From contig CAZSQT010000028.1 in the NCBI GenBank assembly GCA_964609295.1, positions 1-50,297 on the forward strand: a DNA stretch of 50,297 bases, written 5' to 3'. This document shows, piece after piece, positions 1 to 50,297 of the stretch. Numbering within the stretch: position 1 is the stretch's first letter; each line of letters opens with the position of its first letter. The position numbers and the translations under genes are program-made. Under the pieces are notes generated by a model, which was not told the origin of the DNA, did no database searches, and was given only the letters and a program-made list of their open reading frames with translations. The DNA comes from an uncultured Gammaproteobacteria bacterium. GTDB lineage: Bacteria; Patescibacteriota; Microgenomatia; UBA12405.

Positions 1-4
1 AATT

Positions 5-1603
5 ATGAATGGTGGTAAAAAGATTAAGTCTTTAATTTTAATTCCTGTTTTATTAGGTGTTTTAGCTTTGACTTTAACTTTAGTTAAGCAAAGACAAGAG
101 ACAAGGAGGGGGGCAGCAGGAGATGATTTGACTATTTCTGTTAATAAGACTGTTTTTGAAGATGTTGAAAAAAATGAAACTTTTAAGGTGGATGTGCTTG
201 GAAATTATGATTCTAGCTTAATTCGTATGGGGGCTTTTTCAGTTTGTTTAACTCCCAATTTGGAGATTTCTTCAGATACTATAGTTACTAGTTCTTTTAA
301 TGATATTAAATTTAAAGAAGCAAAATCTGATTATGTTGTTGATGGATTTAACTGTTATACGATTAATTGTTTGATGAATAGTTATTCGTCAGCTGGTGAA
401 TTTGATTTTTTTACTATGAATGTTAAATCTAAAGATGGTAATAAAGGTGAAATAAATATTTCTCCACTTGAAGGAGAATTTATTTCTACAGAAGACCCTT
501 ATAGTGCCCTTGATGTGAGTAGTGACTTGGTCTTGAAGGTTAAGATTAATGATGGAGGAGAAAAAAGTGATTATGATTTGAAAGTGGAGACTAAAGTGGA
601 TAAGGAGGATGTTAATGTAGGTGATAATGTAAAAATTGTTTTTAGTAGAGATGATGGTTATAAATTATATGGTCTTGATGTGTCTTTTTTGTATAGTGAT
701 AAATTTGATGATATTGAGAAGGATGATGTTTTAATTTTTAATCTAGGAGAGCCTGATTCTTGTAATATTCAAAGTTTTAAAAAAGCCAAAGAAGGTGTTT
801 TTAAAAAGGTTAGTTTTGGTATTAATTGTGGTGATAAATCTGAGAAATTATATGAAGGGAAAGATGATTTTTTACAATTAACTTTAAAGGCAATTAATGA
901 GGGAAATGCTATTGTTAAGACTGAAATAGACCAAGTTACGTTTTTTGAAGATACAACTAGATTTTTTAATGTTGCCCCTATCGATGATGTTAAGTTGACT
1001 ATTACTAAATCTTCTGTACCACCTGTAATTCCAAATGATGAGGCGAAGGTTTCGGCTAATTTTACTTTTGTAGGGATTAATACAGGTTCACCTCCGAGGT
1101 GTATGAGTAGTCCAGAGATGGATATTTTGGTGGTTTCTGGTGATACTAAGGTAGAAAAGCAAGTGACAGCTCATTGGGTTAAGGATACTAATTATTACAA
1201 TGTAGTCTTTGATTTGGAATCTGATTTTGTAGGCAAAGATAATGTCTCAATATTTTTGAAAGGGCCTCAACATTTGAGAATAAAATATGGTATAGATGGA
1301 CAAGATAGTGTTTACAATGAATTGCATGGTCAATTGTCAATTGAAGGGGGTAGGGAAAATAAGTTTGATTTTACCAAGTTTCCTGTGCTAGGTGGAGATA
1401 TTGCTGAAAGTAAAAGAGATGGTTCTATTAATGGCGAGGACTTTTCTTTTATGAAGAAGAGGTCTCGTGAAATAGTTAGACATGCAAATAAAGAGTCTAC
1501 TGACATGATTTGGGGTGATTTGAATGGAGATTGTGTAGTTAATGGGGCTGATGTGGCTTTGTTCTTAAAATCTCTAGTTGAAAAGCAGGACCAAACTTAT
1601 TAA
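5..1603 (+). CDS. membrane-anchored surface protein with two cohesin-like beta-sandwich modules and a C-terminal dockerin-like segment
   Basis: 532-aa ORF. N-terminal hydrophobic anchor IKSLILIPVLLGVLALTLTLV. The C-terminus carries RDGSINGEDFSF and DLNGDCVVNGADVALFL, which fit the DxNxDGxhNxxD Ca-loop pattern of dockerins. Call made by eye. Confidence 0.5.
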   Translation: MNGGKKIKSLILIPVLLGVLALTLTLVKQRQETRRGAAGDDLTISVNKTVFEDVEKNETFKVDVLGNYDSSLIRMGAFSVCLTPNLEISSDTIVTSSFNDIKFKEAKSDYVVDGFNCYTINCLMNSYSSAGEFDFFTMNVKSKDGNKGEINISPLEGEFISTEDPYSALDVSSDLVLKVKINDGGEKSDYDLKVETKVDKEDVNVGDNVKIVFSRDDGYKLYGLDVSFLYSDKFDDIEKDDVLIFNLGEPDSCNIQSFKKAKEGVFKKVSFGINCGDKSEKLYEGKDDFLQLTLKAINEGNAIVKTEIDQVTFFEDTTRFFNVAPIDDVKLTITKSSVPPVIPNDEAKVSANFTFVGINTGSPPRCMSSPEMDILVVSGDTKVEKQVTAHWVKDTNYYNVVFDLESDFVGKDNVSIFLKGPQHLRIKYGIDGQDSVYNELHGQLSIEGGRENKFDFTKFPVLGGDIAESKRDGSINGEDFSFMKKRSREIVRHANKESTDMIWGDLNGDCVVNGADVALFLKSLVEKQDQTY

Positions 1604-1642
1604 TATTAAATTATTAAAGATAATAAAGGGAGAATTAAAAAA

Positions 1643-2254
1643 ATGAAAGAAAAAAATAAAAAGTTTTTTGATGTTTTGATACCGTTAATTGCTTTTGTAA
1701 TAATAGTTCAGAGTATTGTGATAGTAACTAGTTTCAAAAAGGCCTCTGATGCCAATCAAGATGTGGTGAAAAAACCAACTGCATCAGAAGAGTTGGAAAA
1801 AAAGCAAGATCCTGTTTACAATTTGGTTTTTAGTACTCCTAGCACTGAGATGGAAAAGGGTAAATCATACCCTGTTGTCTTGAAAGCTTTGAGTGATACT
1901 AACAATGCTATTGATGCGGTGAGCTTGTATATCAAATATGACAAAGAGGCTTTTACTGTATCTAATTTGGAGTTTAGCGATAAATTACCCAAGCCTGGCT
2001 ATAGCAAAATTAGTGACAAGGTGGGAATGGTAGTGGTTCATTATTTTGTTAGTGAAGCTAATGGTTTGGCTATTAACAAGGATGAAACTTTTGATCTTTT
2101 GGGTTTTGAGATAGTGCCCAAAAAGTCGGGAGATTTTAAGTTTGAAATAAGTACTGGAAATGATGGTTTAGATTCTGTTACTATGATAGTAGATAATGCG
2201 ACTACCAAATTACTGCCCATAAGTAGTAATGCATTAAATGTTGAAGTCAAATAA
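1643..2254 (+). CDS. membrane-anchored cohesin-like domain protein
   Basis: 203-aa ORF with an N-terminal TM helix (FFDVLIPLIAFVIIVQSIVIVT). A single beta-rich module (YPVVLKALSD..AIDAVSLYIKYDKEAFTVSNLEF) resembles a cohesin. Same strand as the previous gene, 39 nt downstream, with a GGGAG Shine-Dalgarno. Confidence 0.45.
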   Translation: MKEKNKKFFDVLIPLIAFVIIVQSIVIVTSFKKASDANQDVVKKPTASEELEKKQDPVYNLVFSTPSTEMEKGKSYPVVLKALSDTNNAIDAVSLYIKYDKEAFTVSNLEFSDKLPKPGYSKISDKVGMVVVHYFVSEANGLAINKDETFDLLGFEIVPKKSGDFKFEISTGNDGLDSVTMIVDNATTKLLPISSNALNVEVK

Positions 2255-2263
2255 TCAAAATAA

Positions 2264-2995
2264 ATGACAAACTTAAATAAAATTTTAACTTTGATAGGAT
2301 GTTTTGCAATGATGTTTTTATTGTCGCCAATGAAGGTTATGGCTGGTCCTCATTATACTTTGGATGCGGCCACAGGTGAGCATACTAATGGTTCTTCTTT
2401 TAGTGTAATTGTTGGGGTAACAGGCATAGGTGAGTCAGGAATGGTCACTGGAGATGTTGATTTGAATTTTGATAAATCTAAATTGGAAATTAGTTCTGTA
2501 GAAAAGTTGTCAAATACAGTTTTTCCTTATAGTAGCGATATTAATTTTAAGACTGATAATGTTAATGGAACGATGATGGTATCTATTTTTTCTGGCGATC
2601 AGGAGATTTCTTTTGGTAATGGTGTGACTAATATTTCTGGTCCTTTGTTTAAAATAAATTTTAAAGCTAAATCAGAAGGGACGGCAGCGGTGACTTTTAA
2701 TTGTACAACTGGTAAAACAGATGATACTAACATTTTTTTGGCTCCAGGAGCAACTGAAGGGATTGTTTGTAGCGAAAATACAACAGGGAGTTATACAATT
2801 AAGGCAGCTTCTTCGACTTCAACAACTTCAACAACAACTTCAACAACAACTTCAACAACTTCGACGACAACTCCTACTCCAACAACAGCGGTTACGGCAA
2901 CTGAATTACCACAAACTGGGAGTGTTGGAACAACTATATTATTGACTCTTTTGGGAACTTTGGGTGTTATTGGTGCTTTCTTGTTAAAGATCTAA
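2264..2995 (+). CDS. cell-wall-anchored cohesin-like protein with a Thr/Ser linker and an LPXTG sorting signal
   Basis: Signal peptide ending VMA/GP. Beta-rich module (DVDLNFDKSKLEISSVE...). STTSTTTSTTTSTTSTTTPTPTT linker. C-terminal LPQTG followed by a hydrophobic stretch and a terminal K, which is a canonical sortase substrate tail. Confidence 0.6.
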   Translation: MTNLNKILTLIGCFAMMFLLSPMKVMAGPHYTLDAATGEHTNGSSFSVIVGVTGIGESGMVTGDVDLNFDKSKLEISSVEKLSNTVFPYSSDINFKTDNVNGTMMVSIFSGDQEISFGNGVTNISGPLFKINFKAKSEGTAAVTFNCTTGKTDDTNIFLAPGATEGIVCSENTTGSYTIKAASSTSTTSTTTSTTTSTTSTTTPTPTTAVTATELPQTGSVGTTILLTLLGTLGVIGAFLLKI

Positions 2996-2996
2996 T

Positions 2997-3722
2997 ATGA
3001 ACAAGAAAAAAATAAGTTTTAAAACGATTTTAATTTTTGTGATAGTAATTTTGACGGGTGTTTTGGCAGTAATGGGTTTGAATGTCACTAGGACTTATTT
3101 GTCGGGGGCCGATACTAGTATTAAACCACAAAATGTTTTGGCTATTCCTGGCAAGGATGGTAGGAGTGTAACTATCACCTGGACAACAGAAAAACCATCT
3201 ATCAGTATGGTTTCGTGGGGGACAACTCCGGCTAATACTATGATTAAGGCAGGTCAAACTGATTTGGTAACTTCTCACAACATCAAGGTTGATACTTTGA
3301 GGCCGGGGACAACTTATTATTTTAAGATTGTAATTGGTAGTGATGAGTATATGGAGAATGGAGTACCTTATAGCTTTAAGACGCCCAGTGGAACAGCTGA
3401 TCAAACTAGTGCTTCGGAAGAAGAGACAGAGGCGGTGCCTACAGTGGTAGTACCAACAGCAGCAGTGGCAACACCAGAAGCCACTCCAACAACAGCGGAG
3501 ATTGATACTAGTAAATGTGACAGAGTGACTGATTACAATAGCGATGGGGTGGTCAATAGCTTGGACTATTATTATTGTATTCAATCTTTATCTGATTCGA
3601 GTAGTACTCCAAGTGCAACTCCGACAACTGCTAGCACTGGTTGTGATGCTGGCAAGGATAACAATGGCGATGGGGTGATAAATAGCCTAGATGCTTTGTG
3701 GTGTTTACAAAACACCAACTGA
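2997..3722 (+). CDS. membrane-anchored FN3-like protein with two dockerin-like Ca-binding repeats
   Basis: N-terminal TM helix. FN3/PAP-N-like module (SVTITWTTEKPSISMVSWG...LRPGTTYYFKIV). DYNSDGVVNSLDYYYC and DNNGDGVINSLDALWC repeats. Starts 2 nt after the previous stop. Confidence 0.55.
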   Translation: MNKKKISFKTILIFVIVILTGVLAVMGLNVTRTYLSGADTSIKPQNVLAIPGKDGRSVTITWTTEKPSISMVSWGTTPANTMIKAGQTDLVTSHNIKVDTLRPGTTYYFKIVIGSDEYMENGVPYSFKTPSGTADQTSASEEETEAVPTVVVPTAAVATPEATPTTAEIDTSKCDRVTDYNSDGVVNSLDYYYCIQSLSDSSSTPSATPTTASTGCDAGKDNNGDGVINSLDALWCLQNTN

Positions 3723-14525: not shown

Positions 14526-14765
14526 ATGCAACAAATAATAAATATAACAAGCCAATGGCAAATATATGTACCGGAGATAATTAGAAAACAAATGAATCTT
14601 GATAAGCCTACTAGGGCAACAATTTTTGCCAAGGATGGTTTAATTTATATTAAACCTATAAAAAGTAAAATATTATCTTTGGCTGGAAAATTTCGCGGAA
14701 GAAAACCGGTTATTGATATTATTATTAATAAAGAGAGGGATTATATAGATTATAGTGATTTATGA
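14526..14765 (+). CDS. vapB: AbrB/SpoVT-type antitoxin (VapB-like)
   Basis: 79 aa. QIYVPEIIRKQMNLDKPTRATIFAKDGLIYIKP looks like a swapped-hairpin beta-barrel motif. Overlaps the downstream PIN gene by ATGA. Confidence 0.6.
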   Translation: MQQIINITSQWQIYVPEIIRKQMNLDKPTRATIFAKDGLIYIKPIKSKILSLAGKFRGRKPVIDIIINKERDYIDYSDL

Positions 14766-15166
14766 AAAAAGTATTAATTGATTCAAATGTGTGGCTTCGG
14801 TATTTTTTAGAAGATAATAAAGAACAGTTTGTATTGGCAAAAAAATTAATTGAAAATATTGAAAATAATAAAATATATCCATATATTTCATCATTTATAT
14901 TTATGGAGATAGTATATGTTTTGGAGAAATTATATCTTTTTAAAAAAGATGACATAAAAGAAATTGTTGAAAGTATTTTGTTAATGCGAAATATTGTAAT
15001 TGTTAAGGATACTGATTTTATCAAGGCTTGGAAATGGTGTAATGAGTGTGGGGTTAAAATGGCGGATTGTTTAATAGCAACTTCAATAAAGGAAAAAGTT
15101 AAGTTAGCAACTTTTGATAATGAATTTAAGAAATTGAAAGAAGTTCAATTATTTGATTGGAATTAA
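14762..15166 (+). CDS. vapC: PIN-domain toxin (VapC-like)
   Basis: 134 aa. KVLIDSNVWLRYF supplies the first acidic residue, FMEIVYVL the second, and the C-terminal MADCLIA...ATFDNEF completes the pattern. Confidence 0.72.
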   Translation: MKKVLIDSNVWLRYFLEDNKEQFVLAKKLIENIENNKIYPYISSFIFMEIVYVLEKLYLFKKDDIKEIVESILLMRNIVIVKDTDFIKAWKWCNECGVKMADCLIATSIKEKVKLATFDNEFKKLKEVQLFDWN

Positions 15167-39993: not shown

Positions 39994-40079
39994 ATAACTA
40001 GAACTTTGGGACAAATCCCAGTGGGAAAGCTTTATGGCTACCAAGGTTTCTGACCCCGCTTTGGCGGGGTTTTATTTTA
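39994..40079 (+). ncRNA. candidate small RNA of about 85 nt ending in an intrinsic terminator
   Basis: Lies between the promoter above and the hairpin accccgc-tttg-gcggggt (40053-40070) plus TTTATTTTA. No plus-strand gene is present in this pth-ligA gap. The 5' end is inferred. Confidence 0.35.
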
Positions 40080-44257: not shown

Positions 44258-46003
44258 ATGATTGGTGCTGCCCCAAAAGTCTATAAGAATTTGACGGATG
44301 TTTTGTTGGATAAAAATTTAATCAAAAAAGAAAAAGCAGAAGAGATAAAGTTAAGACAGCTAAAGACAGGAGAAAGCGAAGAGGAAATTATCAAAAATTT
44401 GCGCTTGGTTTCTAGCGATGAATTGGTTGAAGCGAAGGCGATTTTTTTGAGAGTTCCTTTTATTGATTTAAATACGATTGGTTTTTCTCCTGAGGCTTTG
44501 TCTTTGGTGCCAGAAGTGGTGGCAAAAAAATATTTGGTAGCACCTTACAATCTCGATACCAAAAACAAGATTTTGTATGTGTCGATGGTGAATCCCTTGG
44601 ATTTGGAAACGGTTGAATTTATAGAGAAAAAATCTGGAATGAGAGTTAAGACAGGAATGTCGACTCAGAAACAGATTTCAGTTTTTATTGAAGAAAAGTA
44701 TGAGAGAGAAAAAGGGATTGCGACTGAGGTAGGTAAGGCTTTGGATGAGAGAAAAAAATATGAAAAGGAAGAAGTTTTGATTAGTGAGGCTAATAAAGTT
44801 TCAGCAGAAGCGCCAGTGGCTAAGATTGTTAATACGGTTTTGGAATACGCGATTAAGGCACGAGCCTCGGATGTCCATATTGAGCCGCAAGAAGAAAATG
44901 TCAGAGTTAGATATAGGATTGATGGTATTTTACAAGAAAAATATATTTTGCCTCGCAATGTTAATGATGCAGTGGTTTCCAGAATTAAGATTTTGTCTGG
45001 TTTGAAAATTGACGAGAAGAGGGTGCCTCAAGACGGTAGATTTTTCTTTTCCAATGATGGAGTTGATGTTGATTTGCGTGTATCTAGTTTGCCTACAACT
45101 TATGGGGAAAAAGTAGTAATGAGACTTTTACAAAAATCTCAAAAGGTACCAACTTTACCAGATTTGGGTTTAAGAGGATTAGCTTTAAAAAATTTAATGT
45201 CATCAATTGAAAGACCTCATGGAATTATTATTGTTTGTGGTCCGACTGGATCAGGTAAAACAACGACTCTTTATTCTATTTTGGATATTGTAGCGACGAC
45301 GAAAGTCAATGTGGTGACTATCGAGGACCCAGTTGAATATCAGATGAAGGGGGTCAATCAGGTGCAAGTAAATAGTCAGGCTGGTTTAACTTTTGCTAGT
45401 GCCTTGCGTTCTTTTTTGCGTCAGGATCCTAATGTCATAATGGTAGGAGAAATCCGGGATACAGAAACAGCTGAATTGGCAGTAAACGCAGCTTTGACAG
45501 GACATTTGGTCTTCTCTACCCTACATACCAACGATGCCTCTGGAGTACCACCAAGAATGATGGATATGGGAGTAGAACCTTTTTTGCTAACTTCGGCAAT
45601 GAATTGTGTAGTGGGACAGCGGGTTTTGCGAAGAGTGTGTAAGGAATGTAGTCAAGAGATGGATATGACACCATCTCAAATTGAGGATTTTAAAAGAACT
45701 TTGGGTCCTATCTATGACATGATTGAAGACAAGTGGAAAAAAGAAAATCGACCAATGAAGATTCCCAAATTAGTTGGTTGTGAAAAATGCAATAATACTG
45801 GTTACCATGGACGAATTGCTATTTATGAAGTTATGCCGGTTAATGAAAAAATAAGTAAGGCAATTTTGAGTAAAGCGACAGCCGGTGATATCCAAAAGAT
45901 GGCAATGGATGATGGTATGTTAACAATGAAGCAAGATGGTTATGTTAAAGTTTTAGAAGGGATAACAACCATTGAGGAAGTTATTAGAGTAGCTCAATAC
46001 TAA
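44258..46003 (+). CDS. pilB: type IV pilus assembly ATPase PilB (GspE family)
   Basis: N-terminal T2SSE_N-like domain, Walker A GPTGSGKTTT, Asp box, Walker B IMVGEIRD, His box GHLVFSTLHTND, and tetracysteine CKEC...CEKC. Confidence 0.9.
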   Translation: MIGAAPKVYKNLTDVLLDKNLIKKEKAEEIKLRQLKTGESEEEIIKNLRLVSSDELVEAKAIFLRVPFIDLNTIGFSPEALSLVPEVVAKKYLVAPYNLDTKNKILYVSMVNPLDLETVEFIEKKSGMRVKTGMSTQKQISVFIEEKYEREKGIATEVGKALDERKKYEKEEVLISEANKVSAEAPVAKIVNTVLEYAIKARASDVHIEPQEENVRVRYRIDGILQEKYILPRNVNDAVVSRIKILSGLKIDEKRVPQDGRFFFSNDGVDVDLRVSSLPTTYGEKVVMRLLQKSQKVPTLPDLGLRGLALKNLMSSIERPHGIIIVCGPTGSGKTTTLYSILDIVATTKVNVVTIEDPVEYQMKGVNQVQVNSQAGLTFASALRSFLRQDPNVIMVGEIRDTETAELAVNAALTGHLVFSTLHTNDASGVPPRMMDMGVEPFLLTSAMNCVVGQRVLRRVCKECSQEMDMTPSQIEDFKRTLGPIYDMIEDKWKKENRPMKIPKLVGCEKCNNTGYHGRIAIYEVMPVNEKISKAILSKATAGDIQKMAMDDGMLTMKQDGYVKVLEGITTIEEVIRVAQY

Positions 46004-46005
46004 AT

Positions 46006-47073
46006 ATGAATACAAAAATAGAAGCATTATTAAAAATGGCAGTAGCCAATAAGGCAAGTGATATTCATTTGTCTTCGGAGATAGCTCCAAAAATGAGGAT
46101 TAGGGGACAATTGGTCAATGTGACTAATTTTGAAATTGGTTCTAAAACAGAAATGGCAGAATTAATTATGTCAATTTTGGATGAAGAGCAAAAAAAGAAA
46201 TTTTTGGAACAGAAAGAATGGGATTTTTCAATCGAAGTTGAGGGTTCTCGTTTTAGGGTCAATATTTTTTTGCAAAAAGGGATGGTGTCAGCCGCTTTGA
46301 GAATTATTCCGCCAGATATTCCTACTTTTGAAGATTTGAGTTTACCAGAGATTTTTAATTCTTTTTTGGAATATAAACAAGGTTTTATTTTGGTGACAGG
46401 GCCAACAGGTATGGGTAAATCAACAACAGTAGCTTCAATGCTTAACAAAATAAATCAACAAAAGGCTAGTCATATTGTGACGGTTGAAGATCCAGTAGAA
46501 TACTTGATTAAGCCTAAGCTGTCGATTGTATCTCAGAGAGAAGTCGGCCATGATACTTTAGATTTTCCATCGGCTTTGAGATCATCATTGAGGCAAGATC
46601 CAAATACCGTTTTTGTTGGTGAGATGAGGGATCTTGAGACAATTCAATCAGCTTTGACAATCGCCGAGACGGGACACTTGGTCTTCTCTACCCTACATAC
46701 CAATTCAGCGGCTCAAACTATTGATAGAATTATTGATGTTTTTGAGGTGAAGGAGCAAATTAGAACCCAATTAGCTTCAGTGATTACGGCGGTAATTTCT
46801 CAAAGATTAGTACCAACAATTGATGGTAAATTGACTCCAGCTTTTGAAATTTTGGTAGCGACACCGGCTGTCAAAAATTGTATTAGGGAAGGTAAGGTTT
46901 TTATGATTGACAATATTATCCAGACAAGTAGCGATGTGGGGATGATTAGTCTCGAGTCTTATTTGGCCAAACTAGTGAAGAGTGGCAAAATTAGTGAAGA
47001 AGTAGCGACTAGTTATGCATTAAAACCAGCAGACTTACAAAATAGTTTGCGATCAAACAAATTAAATGCCTAA
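46006..47073 (+). CDS. pilT: type IV pilus retraction ATPase PilT
   Basis: ASDIHL, GPTGMGKSTT, VFVGEMRD, GHLVFSTLHTNS, and about 355 aa with no N1 domain. Confidence 0.88.
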   Translation: MNTKIEALLKMAVANKASDIHLSSEIAPKMRIRGQLVNVTNFEIGSKTEMAELIMSILDEEQKKKFLEQKEWDFSIEVEGSRFRVNIFLQKGMVSAALRIIPPDIPTFEDLSLPEIFNSFLEYKQGFILVTGPTGMGKSTTVASMLNKINQQKASHIVTVEDPVEYLIKPKLSIVSQREVGHDTLDFPSALRSSLRQDPNTVFVGEMRDLETIQSALTIAETGHLVFSTLHTNSAAQTIDRIIDVFEVKEQIRTQLASVITAVISQRLVPTIDGKLTPAFEILVATPAVKNCIREGKVFMIDNIIQTSSDVGMISLESYLAKLVKSGKISEEVATSYALKPADLQNSLRSNKLNA

Positions 47074-48277
47074 TTTTATTTTTAAAGCTAGAGATTGGAA
47101 TGGAAAGTTAATTCAGGGTAAATTAGATTCGGCAGACAAAAAACAAGTTTTGGCGTCTATCAAAGAAACTGGATTGATACCAATTAGTGTGGAAAAGAAA
47201 ATGAGTGGGATATTGGAAGAAATTAATAAAAAGATTTTGGGTAGAGTTGGTTTGAAACAAATTTCTAATTTTACTCGCCAATTGTCGACAATGATGACAG
47301 CTGGATTGGCCTTGACTGATTCCTTATCACTTTTAAAAAATCAGTCTAAAGAGAGTACTTTTATGTTTGAAATTTTGGACTATGCTTTGACAAAAGTTCA
47401 AGGAGGAGAACCATTGGGTGAGGCCTTGGAGAAATATAAAAATGTTTTTGGCGAAGCTTATATCGCTTCGATTAAGGCGGGTGAAGAAGGGGGGGTTTTG
47501 GAAGAGATTTTGCAAAAATTGGCTAACAATCTAGAGGAAGAAGAGGAATTTAAGGGCAAAATTAAAGGAGCGATGATTTATCCTATTATCGTTATTATCG
47601 GAATGGTGATTGTGACTTTTATTATGATGATTTTTGTGATTCCTAAAATGATGGGTTTGTATGGAGAATTTGGTTCGGAAATGCCTGCGATGACAAGAGT
47701 GTTGATTTCGATTTCTACAGTGGTTTCAAAATTGTGGTTTTTGTTTCCTTTATTGATCGTTGGGGCGATTGCAATGTTTAAGGCAGGAAACAAAAATAAA
47801 CAGTTTAGATTGAAAAGAGATAAATTGTTTTTAAAGATTCCTATTGTTGGAGAATTAAACAAAAAAACAATTATTTCCAATACTATTAGAACTTTATCAA
47901 TGTTGTTGGCAGCTGGTATTTCGCTAGTTGATGCTTTGAGAATTACAGCTTCGGTGGCTGGCAATGAACATTATTACAATGCTTATCAAAAAATTGCAGA
48001 AAGGGTCCAAAAAGGTTTTAATATAGCCTCTTCTTTTGAAGAAACAGCTATTTTTCCAATTGTAGTTACCCAAATGGTAGCAACTGGTGAGGCGACGGGA
48101 AAATTGGATGAAGTATTGATGAGAGTCTCAAATTTTTTCAAAATTGAGGCGGAACAATCGGTCAAATCGTTAACGGCAGCGATTGAGCCTTTGATTATGA
48201 TAGTGTTAGGGGTAGGGGTAGGATTTTTGGTGATTGCCGTAATTATGCCAATCTATAACTTGACAAGTCAATTTTAA
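47066..48277 (+). CDS. pilC: type IV pilus platform protein PilC (GspF family)
   Basis: Two T2SSF repeats (FTRQLSTMMTAGLAL.., TIRTLSMLLAAGISL..) and three TM segments. Confidence 0.9.
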   Translation: MPNFIFKARDWNGKLIQGKLDSADKKQVLASIKETGLIPISVEKKMSGILEEINKKILGRVGLKQISNFTRQLSTMMTAGLALTDSLSLLKNQSKESTFMFEILDYALTKVQGGEPLGEALEKYKNVFGEAYIASIKAGEEGGVLEEILQKLANNLEEEEEFKGKIKGAMIYPIIVIIGMVIVTFIMMIFVIPKMMGLYGEFGSEMPAMTRVLISISTVVSKLWFLFPLLIVGAIAMFKAGNKNKQFRLKRDKLFLKIPIVGELNKKTIISNTIRTLSMLLAAGISLVDALRITASVAGNEHYYNAYQKIAERVQKGFNIASSFEETAIFPIVVTQMVATGEATGKLDEVLMRVSNFFKIEAEQSVKSLTAAIEPLIMIVLGVGVGFLVIAVIMPIYNLTSQF

Positions 48278-48297
48278 TAGTTTTTAATTAAAGTATT

Positions 48298-48999
48298 ATG
48301 AAACAAATATTAAAAAAAGGTTTTACTTTAGTAGAGTTGTTAATTGTTATCGCTTTGATTGCGATTTTGTCAGTAGCAGTGCTTTCAACTATTAATCCTA
48401 TTGAACAGACGAATAAGGCTAGGGACTCTAAATTTAAAAATGATGCAGCTGAGGTTTTGAATGCATCTGAGAGGTATTATGCTTCAGTGCAAAGATATCA
48501 ATGGACTGATGCTTATCCAGAGACAGAAACAGCTTATGTGGCTGATGGAACTGAAGGTATATCTTTTGTTTCTGTTGATCCGAGATTTGGTATTTTAGGA
48601 AATGATATAGCAGATAATACTTATGAAGATGATGGTCCTTTAATTAAAACATCTGAACTTAAAGGTGTTTTTGCTGGGAAAGAACAGTTTGCCAGTACTG
48701 TTGAGATTGATTCAACTGATGCGATGTATGTTTTCCACACTAGTGATTCTAATTATGTTTGTTTTTGTCCTAAAGCTAAAGCTAGTAGAACTGGAGCAAG
48801 TGCCTCTGAATTAAAGTGTTTGAATGGTGTTTCTGAAGTTGAAGGAGCTTATGCTACTGCTACTTTGGTTGATGTTGATGGAGTAAATTGTACCGCTCCA
48901 ACCGAATCTGAAGCTAGCGAAACTGGTTTCTGTGCTGTTAATAAAGGTACTGGTGATTATGCTAATTTAATGTGTGTTCCTGAAGGTAGTATCCAATAA
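48298..48999 (+). CDS. type IV pilin (probable major pilin), large Cys-rich globular domain
   Basis: Prepilin leader MKQILKKG/FTLVELLIVIALIAIL with Glu5. 233 aa with 7 Cys in the C-terminal half. A strong terminator follows. Confidence 0.85.
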   Translation: MKQILKKGFTLVELLIVIALIAILSVAVLSTINPIEQTNKARDSKFKNDAAEVLNASERYYASVQRYQWTDAYPETETAYVADGTEGISFVSVDPRFGILGNDIADNTYEDDGPLIKTSELKGVFAGKEQFASTVEIDSTDAMYVFHTSDSNYVCFCPKAKASRTGASASELKCLNGVSEVEGAYATATLVDVDGVNCTAPTESEASETGFCAVNKGTGDYANLMCVPEGSIQ

Positions 49000-49021
49000 G
49001 TTTTAATTTAGTCTGAAATTT

Positions 49022-49047
49022 AAAACCCGCCTTAGGGCGGGTTTTTT
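49022..49047 (+). terminator. intrinsic terminator after the pilin gene
   Basis: aaaacccgcc-ttag-ggcgggtttttt. Confidence 0.75.
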
Positions 49048-49060
49048 GGTATAAATAGAT

Positions 49061-49861
49061 ATGGAACTTTTGGTCTTTATAATTGGTTTGTGTTTTGGTT
49101 CATTTATTAATATGTTGATTTTTCGCACTTCGTGCGAAAAAAAAATCACAAGAAACAATAACCAAGAAACAAACAGAAAAAGATCTTTTTGTGACTATTG
49201 TGGAAAGAGGTTGAATTGGTGGAATAATGTGCCGGTGTTGTCGTTTTTGTTGCAAAAAGGCAAAAGTCAGTGTTGTGGTAAAAAATTAGATATCTCCTAC
49301 CCTATTGTCGAAATAATAATGGGAATATTATTTCTTCTAAATTTTAAATTACCATTTACTAATTACTATTTACTAGTTACTAGTTACTGTATTATTATTT
49401 TAGTTGTTTATAGTGCAGTCTATGATGCCAAGACGATGTATCTCCCCGATTGGTCAACATGGGCGTTGATTTTTTTGGCAATTATTTATCAAATAATAGG
49501 GCGGCCCGTAGGGCCGCCCATGCTGTATTTGTTAAATATTGTTTATAGTGCGATGGGGGCAAGTTTGTTTTTGTATTTGTTGAGCTTGGTCAAAATTAGA
49601 GGTCAGTCAGGTATGGGGATGGGTGATGTATTATTAGCGATATTTATGGGATTATTGTTGGGTTACCCTAATATAATAGTGGCATTTTATGTGGCTTTTA
49701 TAATTGGAGCAGTTTTTGGAATTGTTTATCTTTGGGTATTTAAAGGAAAAAATAAGAGCACAATGATTCCCTTTGGTCCGTTTTTGCTGTTGGGGACTCT
49801 GGTGGCTTGGTGGTGGGGAGAAGGTTTGTGGTATTATTTTAGTAATTTAGTGATTAGATAA
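49061..49861 (+). CDS. pilD: prepilin peptidase (A24 family) PilD
   Basis: Cys pairs CDYCGKRL...CCGKKL, and two Asp regions (YDAKTMYLPD and GMGMGDVLLAIFMG..) in a polytopic protein. Confidence 0.85.
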   Translation: MELLVFIIGLCFGSFINMLIFRTSCEKKITRNNNQETNRKRSFCDYCGKRLNWWNNVPVLSFLLQKGKSQCCGKKLDISYPIVEIIMGILFLLNFKLPFTNYYLLVTSYCIIILVVYSAVYDAKTMYLPDWSTWALIFLAIIYQIIGRPVGPPMLYLLNIVYSAMGASLFLYLLSLVKIRGQSGMGMGDVLLAIFMGLLLGYPNIIVAFYVAFIIGAVFGIVYLWVFKGKNKSTMIPFGPFLLLGTLVAWWWGEGLWYYFSNLVIR

Positions 49862-49863
49862 AT

Positions 49864-50297
49864 ATGAAAAAAGGAGTAACTTTTGTAGAAGTTTTGTTGG
49901 TGATGGTGATACTATCTGTTTTGATTGTGGGGGCGGTGATGACTATCAATCCTATTTTGCAAGTAAATAAGGCAAAAGATGCGAGAAGAAAAAAAGATTT
50001 GGCCAGGATTAAAATAGCTTTTGAAGAATATTATAATGACAAATTGTGTTATCCGTCTCAGGAGGAGATTGATCTTTTGAATTGTGGGGATAATTTTTAC
50101 AGCTACCTCAAAGATTGGCCTTGTGATCCAAATGGGAGTAAATATGCGATATTTATCGATAGTGAAGATGAGTGTCCTAGCTATTATCGTGTTTATGGTA
50201 AATTGCAATGGGAAGATGATACTCAAGCCGTTAATTGTGATTATGGTGAATCAAGTAGTAATGTAGATTGGAGGGAATTTCCTGATGAATATGAGAC
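49864..50297 (+). CDS. type IV pilin-like protein (minor pilin), 3' end outside the window
   Basis: ATG at 49864: MKKG/VTFVEVLLVMVILSVL, with prepilin leader and Glu5. The frame stays open to the window end. It is not in the ORF track, which instead shows a spurious antisense ORF at 49912-50226. Confidence 0.75.
   Translation, partial: MKKGVTFVEVLLVMVILSVLIVGAVMTINPILQVNKAKDARRKKDLARIKIAFEEYYNDKLCYPSQEEIDLLNCGDNFYSYLKDWPCDPNGSKYAIFIDSEDECPSYYRVYGKLQWEDDTQAVNCDYGESSSNVDWREFPDEYE

What the first reader, a model, noticed from the sequence alone, without database searches (positions are those of the whole stretch)
5..3722. Four-gene cohesin/dockerin-like, sortase-anchored surface module with no enzyme cargo
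Four consecutive same-strand genes, separated by 2-40 nt, all encode proteins with an N-terminal signal peptide or anchor.

Seen directly:
- The third gene (2264-2995) ends in LPQTG, a hydrophobic stretch and a terminal Lys, preceded by a Thr/Ser linker encoded by ACTTCAACAACA-type repeats (about 2815-2880).
- The first protein ends in RDGSINGEDFSF and DLNGDCVVNGADVALFL.
- The fourth protein carries DYNSDGVVNSLD and DNNGDGVINSLD after an FN3-like module. These fit the DxNxDGxhNxxD Ca-loop pattern of dockerins.
- The first three proteins contain beta-rich modules that look cohesin-like.

Inference: the locus encodes both halves of a cohesin-dockerin assembly, namely a wall-anchored receptor and dockerin-tagged partners. 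No glycoside hydrolase or other catalytic module is present. In a reduced, probably host-dependent bacterium this could be a self-assembling adhesion or attachment scaffold rather than a cellulosome. It is my best candidate for an undescribed system in this window.
Basis: partly seen in the sequence, partly recalled or inferred. Interest (0 to 1): 0.7.

Follow-up and report, generated by a model that had tools for sequence, protein, structure and literature searches.

The report
Wall-anchored cohesin-dockerin surface display cassette
A tiny, probably host-dependent bacterium related to Candidatus Shapirobacteria carries a conserved gene cassette for plug-and-socket (dockerin and cohesin) proteins fixed to its membrane and cell wall, and it appears to display binding proteins rather than cellulose-degrading enzymes; the parts are of a known kind, but the arrangement and likely use are a new variant.

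Summary

- **g3 (2264-2995):** a signal peptide, a Pfam-significant cohesin, a Ser/Thr linker and an LPQTG sorting signal.
- **g4 (2997-3722):** an FN3-like module plus a Pfam-significant dockerin.
- **g2 (1643-2254):** a membrane-anchored protein whose confident AlphaFold model matches solved cohesins.
- **g1 (5-1603):** one or two cohesin-like modules, an uncharacterised beta module, and a C-terminal dockerin that passes Pfam thresholds in orthologues.

The g1-g2-g3-g4 order is conserved at the same chromosomal position in about 26 loci from at least 22 species, mostly named Candidatus Shapirobacteria.

A sister contig shows the locus continues upstream. It adds three more dockerin-tagged genes: a cohesin adaptor, an FG-GAP protein and a Cys-rich giant protein. 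No enzyme is present in this locus.

The best reading is a hierarchical cohesin-dockerin surface-display system. It resembles the Ruminococcus flavefaciens ScaE/XDoc anchor but carries adhesin-like cargo.

Not shown: actual cohesin-dockerin binding, which dockerin fits which cohesin, and a sortase gene (none in the window; the literature calls sortase near-ubiquitous in Microgenomates).

Cohesin and dockerin proteins of Shapirobacterales have already been detected in a metaproteome and called a "cellulosome". This is therefore a new variant of a known kind, not a new category.

The parts
5..1603 (+). g1: adaptor-type protein made of an N-terminal anchor/signal, two cohesin-like modules, an X-like beta module and a C-terminal dockerin
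   Evidence: ORF. Architecture from local HMMs and hhalign. The family has 187 clusters at 50% identity in 1.84 billion representatives.
5..121 (+). g1 N-terminus: basic residues, a hydrophobic helix and the conserved motif KQRQETRRGAA
   Evidence: RQETRRGA is invariant in alignment A5. The motif is present on 28 cassette-associated proteins. The first 117 nt are near-identical to the start of upstream gene A in L001.
122..574 (+). g1 cohesin-like module 1 (residues about 40-190)
   Evidence: hhalign of the 14-sequence module family against the g3 cohesin family gives probability 96.5%, E 9.8e-10, 147 columns. Pfam gives no hit on its own.
575..1036 (+). g1 cohesin-like module 2 (residues about 191-344), a probable diverged duplicate of module 1
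   Evidence: hhalign against the module-1 family gives probability 76.8%, E 2e-5, 139 columns. This is moderate support only. Orthologues have one module.
1037..1390 (+). g1 X-like beta module (residues 345-462), always directly N-terminal to the dockerin
   Evidence: No Pfam or PDB sequence match. In 146 of 148 representative homologues it is followed by the dockerin, with 59-72 residues left to the C-terminus.
1391..1600 (+). g1 dockerin (type 'beta'): loop 1 GDIAESKRDGSINGED carries an insertion, loop 2 GDLNGDCVVNGAD is canonical
   Evidence: Pfam Dockerin_1 scores 20.3 bits against a gathering score of 22.9. Orthologues score 50.2 and 28.6 bits. Alignment.
1643..2254 (+). g2: cohesin held at the membrane by an N-terminal transmembrane helix (residues 6-29) and a linker of about 25 residues; cohesin fold at residues 55-203 (nt 1805-2251)
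   Evidence: AlphaFold2 mean pLDDT is 80.6, and above 95 in the domain. The top 32 Foldseek PDB hits are all cohesins. Pfam Cohesin scores 19.8 bits, and 7 of 21 orthologues match. hhalign against the g3 family gives 68.6%, E 4.6e-5.
2264..2995 (+). g3: secreted cohesin with a cell-wall sorting signal
   Evidence: Pfam Cohesin scores 41.3 bits against 24.1. 21 of 25 orthologues match. A27 at the likely signal-peptidase site and two Cys are invariant.
2807..2902 (+). g3 Ser/Thr/Pro linker encoded by tandem repeats
   Evidence: Tandem Repeats Finder array at 2816-2872. Translation.
2906..2992 (+). g3 sorting signal: LPQTG, a hydrophobic stretch and Lys-Ile
   Evidence: Seen directly. LP[QRK]TG occurs in 23 of 25 orthologues, and all have the hydrophobic stretch and a K/R. 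Pfam Gram_pos_anchor scores only 15 bits against 20.
2997..3722 (+). g4: N-terminal anchor/signal with a conserved SGA site, an FN3-like module (residues 43-129, nt 3123-3383), a P/T/S linker and a dockerin
   Evidence: Pfam Pur_ac_phosph_N scores 35.2 bits against 30, and fn3 18.6 bits. Family alignment A6.
3510..3719 (+). g4 dockerin (type 'alpha'): two loops, DYNSDGVVNSLD and DNNGDGVINSLD, each bracketed by a near-invariant Cys pair and joined by a Ser/Thr-rich linker
   Evidence: Pfam Dockerin_1 scores 34.3 bits against 22.9. The family profile's best PDB matches are dockerins (2y3n_B, E 5.8e-6). Cys brackets and variable linker.

Best explanation
The four genes are the conserved core of a cohesin-dockerin cell-surface display system in a CPR bacterium related to Candidatus Shapirobacteria.

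**Proposed mechanism.**
- Two "socket" proteins are fixed to the envelope. g2 is a cohesin tethered to the membrane by an N-terminal transmembrane helix. g3 is a cohesin that a sortase links covalently to peptidoglycan through LPQTG, at the end of a Ser/Thr stalk.
- Two "plug" proteins are secreted alongside them. g4 is an FN3-like module with a Cys-bracketed dockerin. g1 carries an X-like module plus a dockerin at its C-terminus.
- g1 also has its own cohesin-like modules at the N-terminus, so it can act as an adaptor. These modules recruit a third dockerin type, which is found on the proteins encoded just upstream: an FG-GAP protein, a Cys-rich giant protein and a further cohesin adaptor. 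In relatives the upstream genes include TSP1/FG-GAP proteins.
- The result is a Ca2+-dependent, hierarchical and exchangeable coat of binding proteins. It most likely serves attachment to a host cell or substrate, not polysaccharide breakdown.

**Shown:** module identities, conserved gene order and synteny, conservation of the sorting signal, co-occurrence of module types, and absence of enzymes in this locus.

**Inferred:** that cohesins and dockerins bind each other, which pairs with which, sortase processing, and the adhesion role.
For: **Module identities.**
- g3 Cohesin and g4 Dockerin_1 plus Pur_ac_phosph_N score above Pfam gathering scores.
- The g2 model has a cohesin fold.
- g1 module 1 is homologous to the g3 cohesin family.
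- The g1-family dockerin passes Pfam in orthologues.
- The third (gamma) dockerin profile hits PDB dockerins at about 1e-5, and Dockerin_1 is the best Pfam family for 11 of 11 members.

**Conservation.**
- The order [X-like module + dockerin] - cohesin g2 - cohesin g3 with LPxTG - [FN3 + dockerin] is kept in about 26 loci from at least 22 GTDB species.
- The cassette always lies directly upstream of YqeY-DnaX-RecR-CysS-S6-SSB-S18.
- LPxTG is conserved in 23 of 25 orthologues.

**Module pairing.**
- All 10 loci that have a g1-type N-terminal cohesin-like module and a visible upstream gene also have a gamma-dockerin protein there. None of the 5 loci without the module does.
- The X-like module and dockerin travel as a dyad in 146 of 148 homologues. 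In L017 the dyad is fused to another protein.

**Cargo.**
- Upstream genes in the sister contig L001 are a cohesin plus dockerin protein, an FG-GAP plus dockerin protein, and a Cys-rich 985-aa protein followed by a frameshifted dockerin.
- Relatives carry TSP_1/FG-GAP, Big_2 and Y_Y_Y modules.

**Literature.**
- Sortase is near-ubiquitous in Microgenomates (PMC6744442).
- Six of the 12 proteins detected for a Shapirobacterales genome in a groundwater metaproteome are cohesin or dockerin proteins, including three consecutive genes (PMC9123182 supplement).
- The R. flavefaciens ScaE/XDoc system is a precedent (PMC5301203).
Against: - No binding or interface was tested. Co-folding was not possible with the tools.
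- No sortase gene lies in the 50-kb window or in any of the 28 loci.
- The LPXTG HMM scores are below threshold.
- The first Ca loop of g1 carries an insertion, and its Dockerin_1 score is below the gathering score.
- The g4 dockerin is atypical. It has Cys brackets and a linker of 15-35 residues, and two species have only one repeat.
- AlphaFold of g1 failed (pLDDT 38.6), so g1 module 2 and the X-like module rest on sequence profiles alone.
- The mirror-tree analysis did not resolve the pairings.
- One relative puts the same X-like module plus dockerin dyad on a NAGPA glycosidase, so enzymes can be cargo.
- The rest of this genome was not available.
- Published work reads such proteins as a cellulosome (PMC9123182).
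Confidence: 0.6

Rival explanations
1. It is a true, minimal cellulosome. g2 and g3 anchor dockerin-tagged glycoside hydrolases encoded elsewhere in the genome, and the system degrades polysaccharides, as proposed for Cand. Shapirobacterales and Roizmanbacterium.
For: Published interpretation in PMC9123182. One relative (L017) has a NAGPA phosphodiester glycosidase carrying the same X-like module plus dockerin dyad about 4 kb from the cassette. A weak CBM_56 hit (21.4 bits against a cut-off of 27) occurs in an L009 neighbour. The remainder of this genome was not examined.
Against: None of the 7 locus proteins here has a CAZyme or CBM domain. Of about 30 cassette-adjacent dockerin proteins scanned in relatives, only the one NAGPA is an enzyme. 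There is no multi-cohesin scaffoldin with a CBM. The cargo is FG-GAP, TSP1, Ig-like and Cys-rich modules.
Confidence: 0.13
2. The modules do not pair with each other. These are independent surface proteins: the cohesin-like beta sandwiches bind external ligands, and the dockerin-like EF-hand loops are only Ca2+-stabilised structural elements.
For: Many non-cellulosomal cohesins and dockerins have no known partner (Peer et al. 2009, cited in PMC10066038). The g4 dockerin is atypical, and two species have a single repeat. No interface was tested.
Against: Two cohesins and two dockerins co-occur strictly in one operon across at least 22 species. The 10/10 against 0/5 co-occurrence of the g1-type cohesin module with gamma dockerins is hard to explain without pairing. 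The X-like module plus dockerin dyad behaves as a mobile unit.
Confidence: 0.12
3. It is a cohesin-dockerin assembly, but its role is structural. It builds or tethers the bacterium's own surface coat, linking membrane to wall in an S-layer-like way, rather than attaching to a host.
For: One cohesin sits at the membrane and one on the wall, which suggests a link between layers. The cassette is vertically inherited next to housekeeping genes in all relatives. The proteins are abundant in a metaproteome.
Against: The upstream cargo array varies between close relatives, which fits diversifying recognition better than a fixed structural coat. FG-GAP, TSP1 and Ig-like modules are typical of adhesins (established knowledge of those families).
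Confidence: 0.15

Closest known systems
Ruminococcus flavefaciens sca cluster: ScaE (single cohesin, LPXTG, sortase-anchored), which binds the X-module-dockerin (XDoc) dyads of ScaB and CttA
   Same: Both have a single cohesin with an LPXTG sorting signal encoded in the same cluster as its presumed partners. Both have a partner with a beta module fused directly to a C-terminal dockerin. Both have an adaptor with cohesin and dockerin in one protein. In both, a non-enzymatic binding protein (CttA) is docked for adhesion (PMC5301203).
   Different: There is no sequence similarity of the X-like module to solved X modules. No CBM, enzyme or multi-cohesin scaffoldin is present. A second, membrane-anchored cohesin (g2) is present. 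The cargo is FG-GAP, TSP1, FN3 and Cys-rich modules. The host is a CPR bacterium whose relatives have chromosome-scale contigs of 0.7-0.95 Mb. Binding has not been tested.
Non-cellulosomal cohesin and dockerin modules (survey by Peer et al. 2009; the Archaeoglobus fulgidus cohesin 2xdh; Clostridium perfringens cohesin modules 2vo8 and 2jh2)
   Same: Cohesin and dockerin modules occur in an organism with no cellulosome. The g2 model matches 2xdh, 2vo8 and 2jh2 among its hits.
   Different: Here the modules form a conserved, syntenic operon with envelope anchors and three co-occurring specificities. They are not scattered single modules. The C. perfringens modules sit on glycosidases.
"Cellulosome" proteins reported for Cand. 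Shapirobacterales (Olkiluoto metaproteome) and Cand. Roizmanbacterium
   Same: The lineage and module types are the same, and consecutive cohesin and dockerin genes are expressed (PMC9123182).
   Different: Those reports rest on domain annotation and infer cellulose degradation. They do not describe the cassette anatomy, the anchors, the adaptor logic or the non-enzymatic cargo found here.
Sortase-anchored adhesins of Gram-positive bacteria (MSCRAMM-type LPXTG proteins)
   Same: g3 has an N-terminal signal peptide, a stalk-like low-complexity linker, and an LPXTG, hydrophobic and basic C-terminus.
   Different: The anchored protein is not itself the adhesin. It is a receptor for exchangeable dockerin-tagged proteins. 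The basic tail is only one residue long.

Membership tests
Cohesin domain (Pfam PF00963) | Significant match to the family HMM | tested here: met
   g3 scores 41.3 bits against a gathering score of 24.1, and 21 of 25 g3 orthologues match. g2 scores only 19.8 bits, and 7 of 21 orthologues match.
Cohesin domain (Pfam PF00963) | Nine-stranded beta-sandwich (jelly-roll) cohesin fold | tested here: met
   For g2, AlphaFold2 pLDDT is above 95 over residues 55-203. The top 32 Foldseek PDB hits are all cohesins, with E down to 3.4e-9, TMt 0.72-0.79 and rmsd 2.6-3.0. g3 and g1 were not modelled usefully.
Cohesin domain (Pfam PF00963) | Homology of the g1 N-terminal modules to cohesins | tested here: inconclusive
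   Module 1 family against the g3 cohesin family gives hhalign 96.5%, E 1e-9, which is good. Module 2 matches only the module-1 family, at 76.8%. Pfam gives no hit, and the structure model failed.
Dockerin type I (Pfam PF00404) | Significant HMM match and two repeats, each with a DxNxDGxhNxxD Ca loop followed by a helix | tested here: met
   g4 scores 34.3 bits against 22.9 and has two canonical loops. Its profile's best PDB matches are dockerins. It departs from the norm in its Cys brackets and its Ser/Thr linker of 15-35 residues.
Dockerin type I (Pfam PF00404) | The same feature, for the g1 C-terminus | tested here: inconclusive
   The window copy scores 20.3 bits against 22.9, and loop 1 has an insertion. 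Orthologues pass at 50.2, 28.6 and 32.6 bits.
Cohesin-dockerin system | Specific, Ca2+-dependent binding of dockerin to cohesin | not testable with these tools
Indirect support comes from operon conservation and the co-occurrence of module types.
Sortase-dependent LPXTG wall anchor | C-terminal tripartite signal: LPXTG, a hydrophobic segment and a basic tail | tested here: met
   Seen directly in g3 and conserved in 23 of 25 orthologues. HMM scores are below cut-off: PF00746 at 15 against 20 bits, and NF053819 at 19 against 47. The tail is a single Lys.
Sortase-dependent LPXTG wall anchor | A sortase gene in the same genome | not testable with these tools
   None found in the window. There is no TLxTC motif in a plausible ORF and no Sortase Pfam hit among the 10 unassigned, mostly membrane, proteins. 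None was found in the 28 loci. The literature calls the sortase family near-ubiquitous in Microgenomates (PMC6744442) and reports it in the closed Microgenomates genome Ch65 (PMC7143001).
Cellulosome | Dockerin-tagged carbohydrate-active enzymes and a multi-cohesin scaffoldin with a CBM | tested here: not met
   No GH, PL, CE or CBM domain occurs in g1-g4 or in L001 genes A-C. This was tested for the locus only, not the genome.
ScaE/XDoc-type anchoring (R. flavefaciens) | An X module fused to the dockerin that binds the sortase-anchored cohesin | tested here: inconclusive
   A conserved beta module always abuts the g1-type dockerin (146 of 148). It has no detectable similarity to solved X modules or to any Pfam family. 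Its partner cohesin is unknown. The mirror-tree analysis gives cohG3-Xmod 0.53, which is weak.

The most novel reading that the evidence does not exclude
The cassette is the core of a modular "adhesome", a cohesin-dockerin attachment organelle specific to Shapirobacteria-like CPR bacteria. Three orthogonal plug-socket specificities build a membrane-to-wall-to-adaptor hierarchy. The fast-changing upstream array of dockerin-tagged FG-GAP, TSP1 and Cys-rich proteins sets which host or surface the episymbiont can attach to. This would be a host-recognition mechanism distinct from the type IV pili currently credited in CPR bacteria.
Probability: 0.3. Interest if true: 0.75.

Novelty: new variant of a known kind. 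Interest (0 to 1): 0.55.

Why it matters
How ultrasmall CPR bacteria other than Saccharibacteria attach to hosts or surfaces is largely unknown. Type IV pili are the usual candidate.

This cassette has several features that suggest it matters. It is retained next to housekeeping genes in lineages whose chromosome-scale contigs span only 0.7-0.95 Mb. Related proteins are abundant in a metaproteome. It is built from parts whose binding rules are easy to test in vitro.

If the pairings hold, three things follow:
- It gives a concrete, testable attachment mechanism.
- It corrects the "cellulosome" reading, which has been used to assign these organisms a role in carbon cycling.
- It adds new orthogonal cohesin-dockerin pairs, including a disulfide-bracketed dockerin and a new X-like module, to the toolbox for protein assembly.

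Tried and rejected
- **AlphaFold2 of full-length g1.** Only six sequences were admissible, and mean pLDDT was 38.6. The model was unusable and was not sent to fold search.
- **Sortase search.** I tried a TLxTC-type motif over all window ORFs, phmmer with S. aureus SrtA (sequence recalled from memory) plus the motif over all 28 loci, and Pfam on 10 unassigned window proteins. Nothing was found. One motif hit, in L013, was a Cys-rich repeat protein.
- **X-like module.** The profile against PDB sequences, and Pfam scans of its members, gave no meaningful match.
- **Pairing by mirror tree.** I computed partial correlations of distance matrices over 17 loci, with YqeY as the control. The same-protein control (beta dockerin and X module) gave 0.68. 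Cross-protein values were 0.53 to 0.07. They do not separate the alternatives, so no pairing is claimed.
- **Co-folding of cohesin and dockerin.** This was not possible.
- **Genome scan.** The GTDB genome scan did not return the window's own genome, so a genome-wide census of dockerins and sortase could not be made.
- **Teneurin-like reading of the g4 repeats.** I considered that they might be teneurin-like Cys-rich Ca-binding repeats (phmmer E about 0.1). I rejected this because the family profile prefers dockerins by three orders of magnitude.
- **Sortase-assembled pilus.** I considered and rejected this. g3 is a single cohesin with no pilin motif, and the other three proteins have no LPXTG.

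Full report
**1. The observation**

The window holds four + strand ORFs at the stated coordinates: g1 5-1603 (532 aa), g2 1643-2254 (203 aa), g3 2264-2995 (243 aa) and g4 2997-3722 (241 aa). The gaps between them are 39, 9 and 1 nt. All four start with a basic then hydrophobic N-terminus.

- LPQTG at nt 2906, followed by a hydrophobic stretch and ...LLKI.
- A tandem DNA repeat at 2816-2872 that encodes the Thr/Ser linker.
- RDGSINGEDFSF and DLNGDCVVNGADVALFL in g1.
- DYNSDGVVNSLD and DNNGDGVINSLD in g4.

The strict dockerin-loop pattern occurs nowhere else in the six-frame translation of the 50-kb window.

**2. Module identities**

*Family searches.*
- Pfam places g3 in Cohesin (41.3 bits, gathering score 24.1).
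- Pfam places g4 in Pur_ac_phosph_N (35.2 against 30) plus Dockerin_1 (34.3 against 22.9).
- g1 Dockerin_1 (20.3) and g2 Cohesin (19.8) fall just below threshold.
- NCBIfam adds nothing.

*g2.* I aligned 30 database homologues and modelled the protein. Residues 55-203 have pLDDT above 95. The 32 best Foldseek matches in the PDB are all cohesins (for example 6kgf_C, E 3.4e-9, TMt 0.77, rmsd 2.6 A). The hits include the non-cellulosomal cohesins of A. fulgidus and C. perfringens. Residues 6-29 form a helix with no obvious cleavage site, so g2 is probably a membrane-tethered cohesin.

*g1.*
- The N-terminal module family (14 sequences from related loci) aligns to the g3 cohesin family with hhalign probability 96.5%, E 1e-9, over 147 columns.
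- A second module, found only in this lineage, matches the first at 76.8%.
- A conserved beta module of about 120 residues follows. It has no Pfam or PDB sequence match.
- The dockerin comes last. Orthologues pass the Pfam threshold (50.2, 28.6 and 32.6 bits). In the window copy the first Ca loop carries an insertion.
- AlphaFold of whole g1 failed with pLDDT 38.6.

*g4 dockerin.* It is atypical. Each loop is bracketed by a near-invariant Cys pair, the inter-repeat linker is 15-35 Ser/Thr/Pro residues, and two species have only one repeat. Even so, the family profile prefers solved dockerins (2y3n_B, E 5.8e-6).

**3. The locus is larger than the window shows**

The window is an entire 50,297-bp contig. 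A near-identical JGI contig, L001, extends 6.2 kb further upstream. It adds three same-strand genes:
- **Gene A (290 aa).** It has the same 39-residue N-terminus as g1, a cohesin-like module and a dockerin-like C-terminus.
- **Gene B (688 aa).** It has FG-GAP repeats and a dockerin-like C-terminus.
- **Gene C (985 aa).** It is Cys-rich. Its dockerin-like tail is broken in that assembly by a 16-nt duplication and a frameshift.

The window starts inside the 117 nt shared by A and g1, which is a typical assembly break at a repeat. The A/B/C tails form a third dockerin flavour, GDANCDGKIxxxDFxIW...ADFNC...DFxIW. Its profile hits PDB dockerins at about 1e-5. All 11 members have Dockerin_1 as their best Pfam family, though below threshold.

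**4. Conservation and organism**

Exact and profile searches found the same cassette in metagenome contigs L003-L006 and in 22 GTDB species genomes. Most of the informatively named ones are Candidatus Shapirobacteria; 13 carry a generic "uncultured Gammaproteobacteria" title that I take to be a placeholder.

In about 26 loci the gene order is the same:
1. [..X-like module + dockerin]
2. membrane cohesin
3. LPxTG cohesin
4. [FN3 + dockerin]

The cassette always lies directly upstream of YqeY-DnaX-RecR-CysS-S6-SSB-S18. Housekeeping identity to the window is 50-65%. The cassette is therefore ancestral to this clade and vertically inherited, in lineages whose chromosome-scale contigs span 0.7-0.95 Mb.

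Further points:
- The sorting signal is LP[QRK]TG in 23 of 25 g3 orthologues.
- The X-like module has 187 clusters at 50% identity among 1.84 billion representatives. In 146 of 148 examined it is followed by the dockerin, with 59-72 residues left to the C-terminus. More than half also carry an N-terminal cohesin-like module.
- In L017 the same dyad sits at the N-terminus of a NAGPA glycosidase. The dyad therefore behaves as a portable unit, like an XDoc dyad.

**5. Logic of the assembly**

There are three cohesin flavours (g2, g3 and the g1/A N-terminal module) and three dockerin flavours (g4 "alpha", g1 "beta" and A/B/C "gamma").

- *Gamma dockerins.* They appear upstream in 10 of 10 loci where a g1-type cohesin module is present and the upstream gene is visible. 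They appear in 0 of 5 loci where the g1-like protein lacks that module. This argues that gamma dockerins plug into the adaptor's cohesin. The loci are phylogenetically related, so the counts are not independent.
- *The other four modules.* g2, g3, alpha and beta always co-occur, so their pairing cannot be read from presence and absence. The mirror-tree analysis was not decisive.
- *Cargo.* Cassette-adjacent cargo in relatives is TSP_1/FG-GAP, Big_2, Y_Y_Y and Cys-rich modules. The NAGPA is the only enzyme.

**6. Sortase**

No sortase gene lies in the window or in any flank, and the rest of the genome could not be reached. The literature gives two relevant points:
- A closed Microgenomates genome encodes a sortase and shows no sign of an outer membrane (PMC7143001).

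The conserved sorting signal is indirect evidence that a sortase acts on g3.

**7. Comparison with what is known**

- *Closest analogue.* The closest system is the R. flavefaciens sca cluster. ScaE, a single cohesin with LPXTG, is wall-linked by sortase. It binds the XDoc dyads of the scaffoldin ScaB and of the non-enzymatic adhesion protein CttA (PMC5301203).
- *Non-cellulosomal modules.* Cohesin and dockerin modules outside cellulosomes are known across the three domains of life (Peer et al. 2009, cited in PMC10066038).
- *Prior reports in this lineage.* Cohesin and dockerin proteins of Cand. Shapirobacterales were detected in a groundwater metaproteome. They make up six of the 12 proteins identified for that genome, including three consecutive genes. 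The authors interpreted them as a cellulosome, and the same claim is cited for Cand. Roizmanbacterium (PMC9123182).
- *What appears to be undescribed.* I found no paper that describes the cassette anatomy, the two anchors, the adaptor logic or the non-enzymatic cargo.

**8. Verdict**

It is a member of the cohesin-dockerin kind. It is not a cellulosome as far as this locus shows.

It is best described as a new variant: an envelope-anchored, hierarchical display system with adhesin-like cargo in a CPR lineage. Binding, pairing, sortase processing and the attachment role are inferences. All of them can be tested directly.

Noticed in passing
window 5-121; also L003, L004, L009, L011, L014-L017, L019, L020, L024, L025, L027 (28 proteins in all): A conserved N-terminal motif: basic residues, a hydrophobic helix, then LVxQxQ(E/D)(T/N)R(R/S)xA (KQRQETRRGAA in g1). 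It sits on g1-family and other cassette-associated secreted proteins. Some copies have a prepilin-like KGF(A/S)QI before the helix. Pfam and NCBIfam gave no match to the g1 N-terminus. It may be a dedicated cleavage or sorting signal.
   Followed up: partly
window 1-120 compared with L001 1-120 and L001 5860-6300: The window contig begins inside a 117-nt sequence shared by g1 and upstream gene A. The sister assembly L001 has a 19-nt deletion in the g1 signal region. It also has a 16-nt tandem duplication and a second frameshift that break the dockerin tail of gene C. These are either assembly errors or population variants.
   Followed up: partly
window, whole length: The + strand has a strongly positive GC skew throughout (0.07-0.52 per 2 kb) at about 30-37% GC. 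This resembles the strand composition disparity reported for the closed Microgenomates genome Ch65 (PMC7143001).
   Followed up: no
window 39994-40055 (+): A match to Rfam DUF3800-II RNA (RF02961) at 65.1 bits against a gathering score of 43.2. It lies between a tRNA and a 683-aa gene on the minus strand.
   Followed up: no
window 44258-50297 (+): A type IV pilus gene cluster, read from the translations only. It has PilB-, PilT- and PilC-like proteins, a pilin with KGFTLVELL (48298-48999), a prepilin-peptidase-like protein (49061-49861), and a second pilin that runs off the contig end.
   Followed up: no
window 32502-33479 (-): A membrane-anchored, Cys-rich thioredoxin-like protein (Pfam VSR_TRX 41.9 bits, and GILT). 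It has CPYG where a CxxC motif would be expected. It may be related to the extracytoplasmic thiol-disulfide oxidoreductases that Meheust et al. 2019 noted in CPR bacteria. It could matter for the disulfide-bracketed dockerin and the Cys-rich cargo.
   Followed up: partly
L017 12223-14025 (+): In one relative, the X-like module plus beta dockerin dyad lies at the N-terminus of a NAGPA phosphodiester glycosidase, about 4 kb downstream of the cassette. It is the only enzyme seen with these dockerins.
   Followed up: partly
L013 1360-3703 (+): One relative encodes extra proteins with alpha-type (g4-like) dockerins just downstream of g4, next to a Cys-rich repeat protein. This suggests that the alpha socket also takes several alternative cargos.
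   Followed up: no
window 14526-15166 (+): A small two-gene pair of 79 aa and 134 aa. From the translations it looks like an AbrB/SpoVT-type antitoxin with a PIN-domain toxin. This was not checked with any tool.
   Followed up: no
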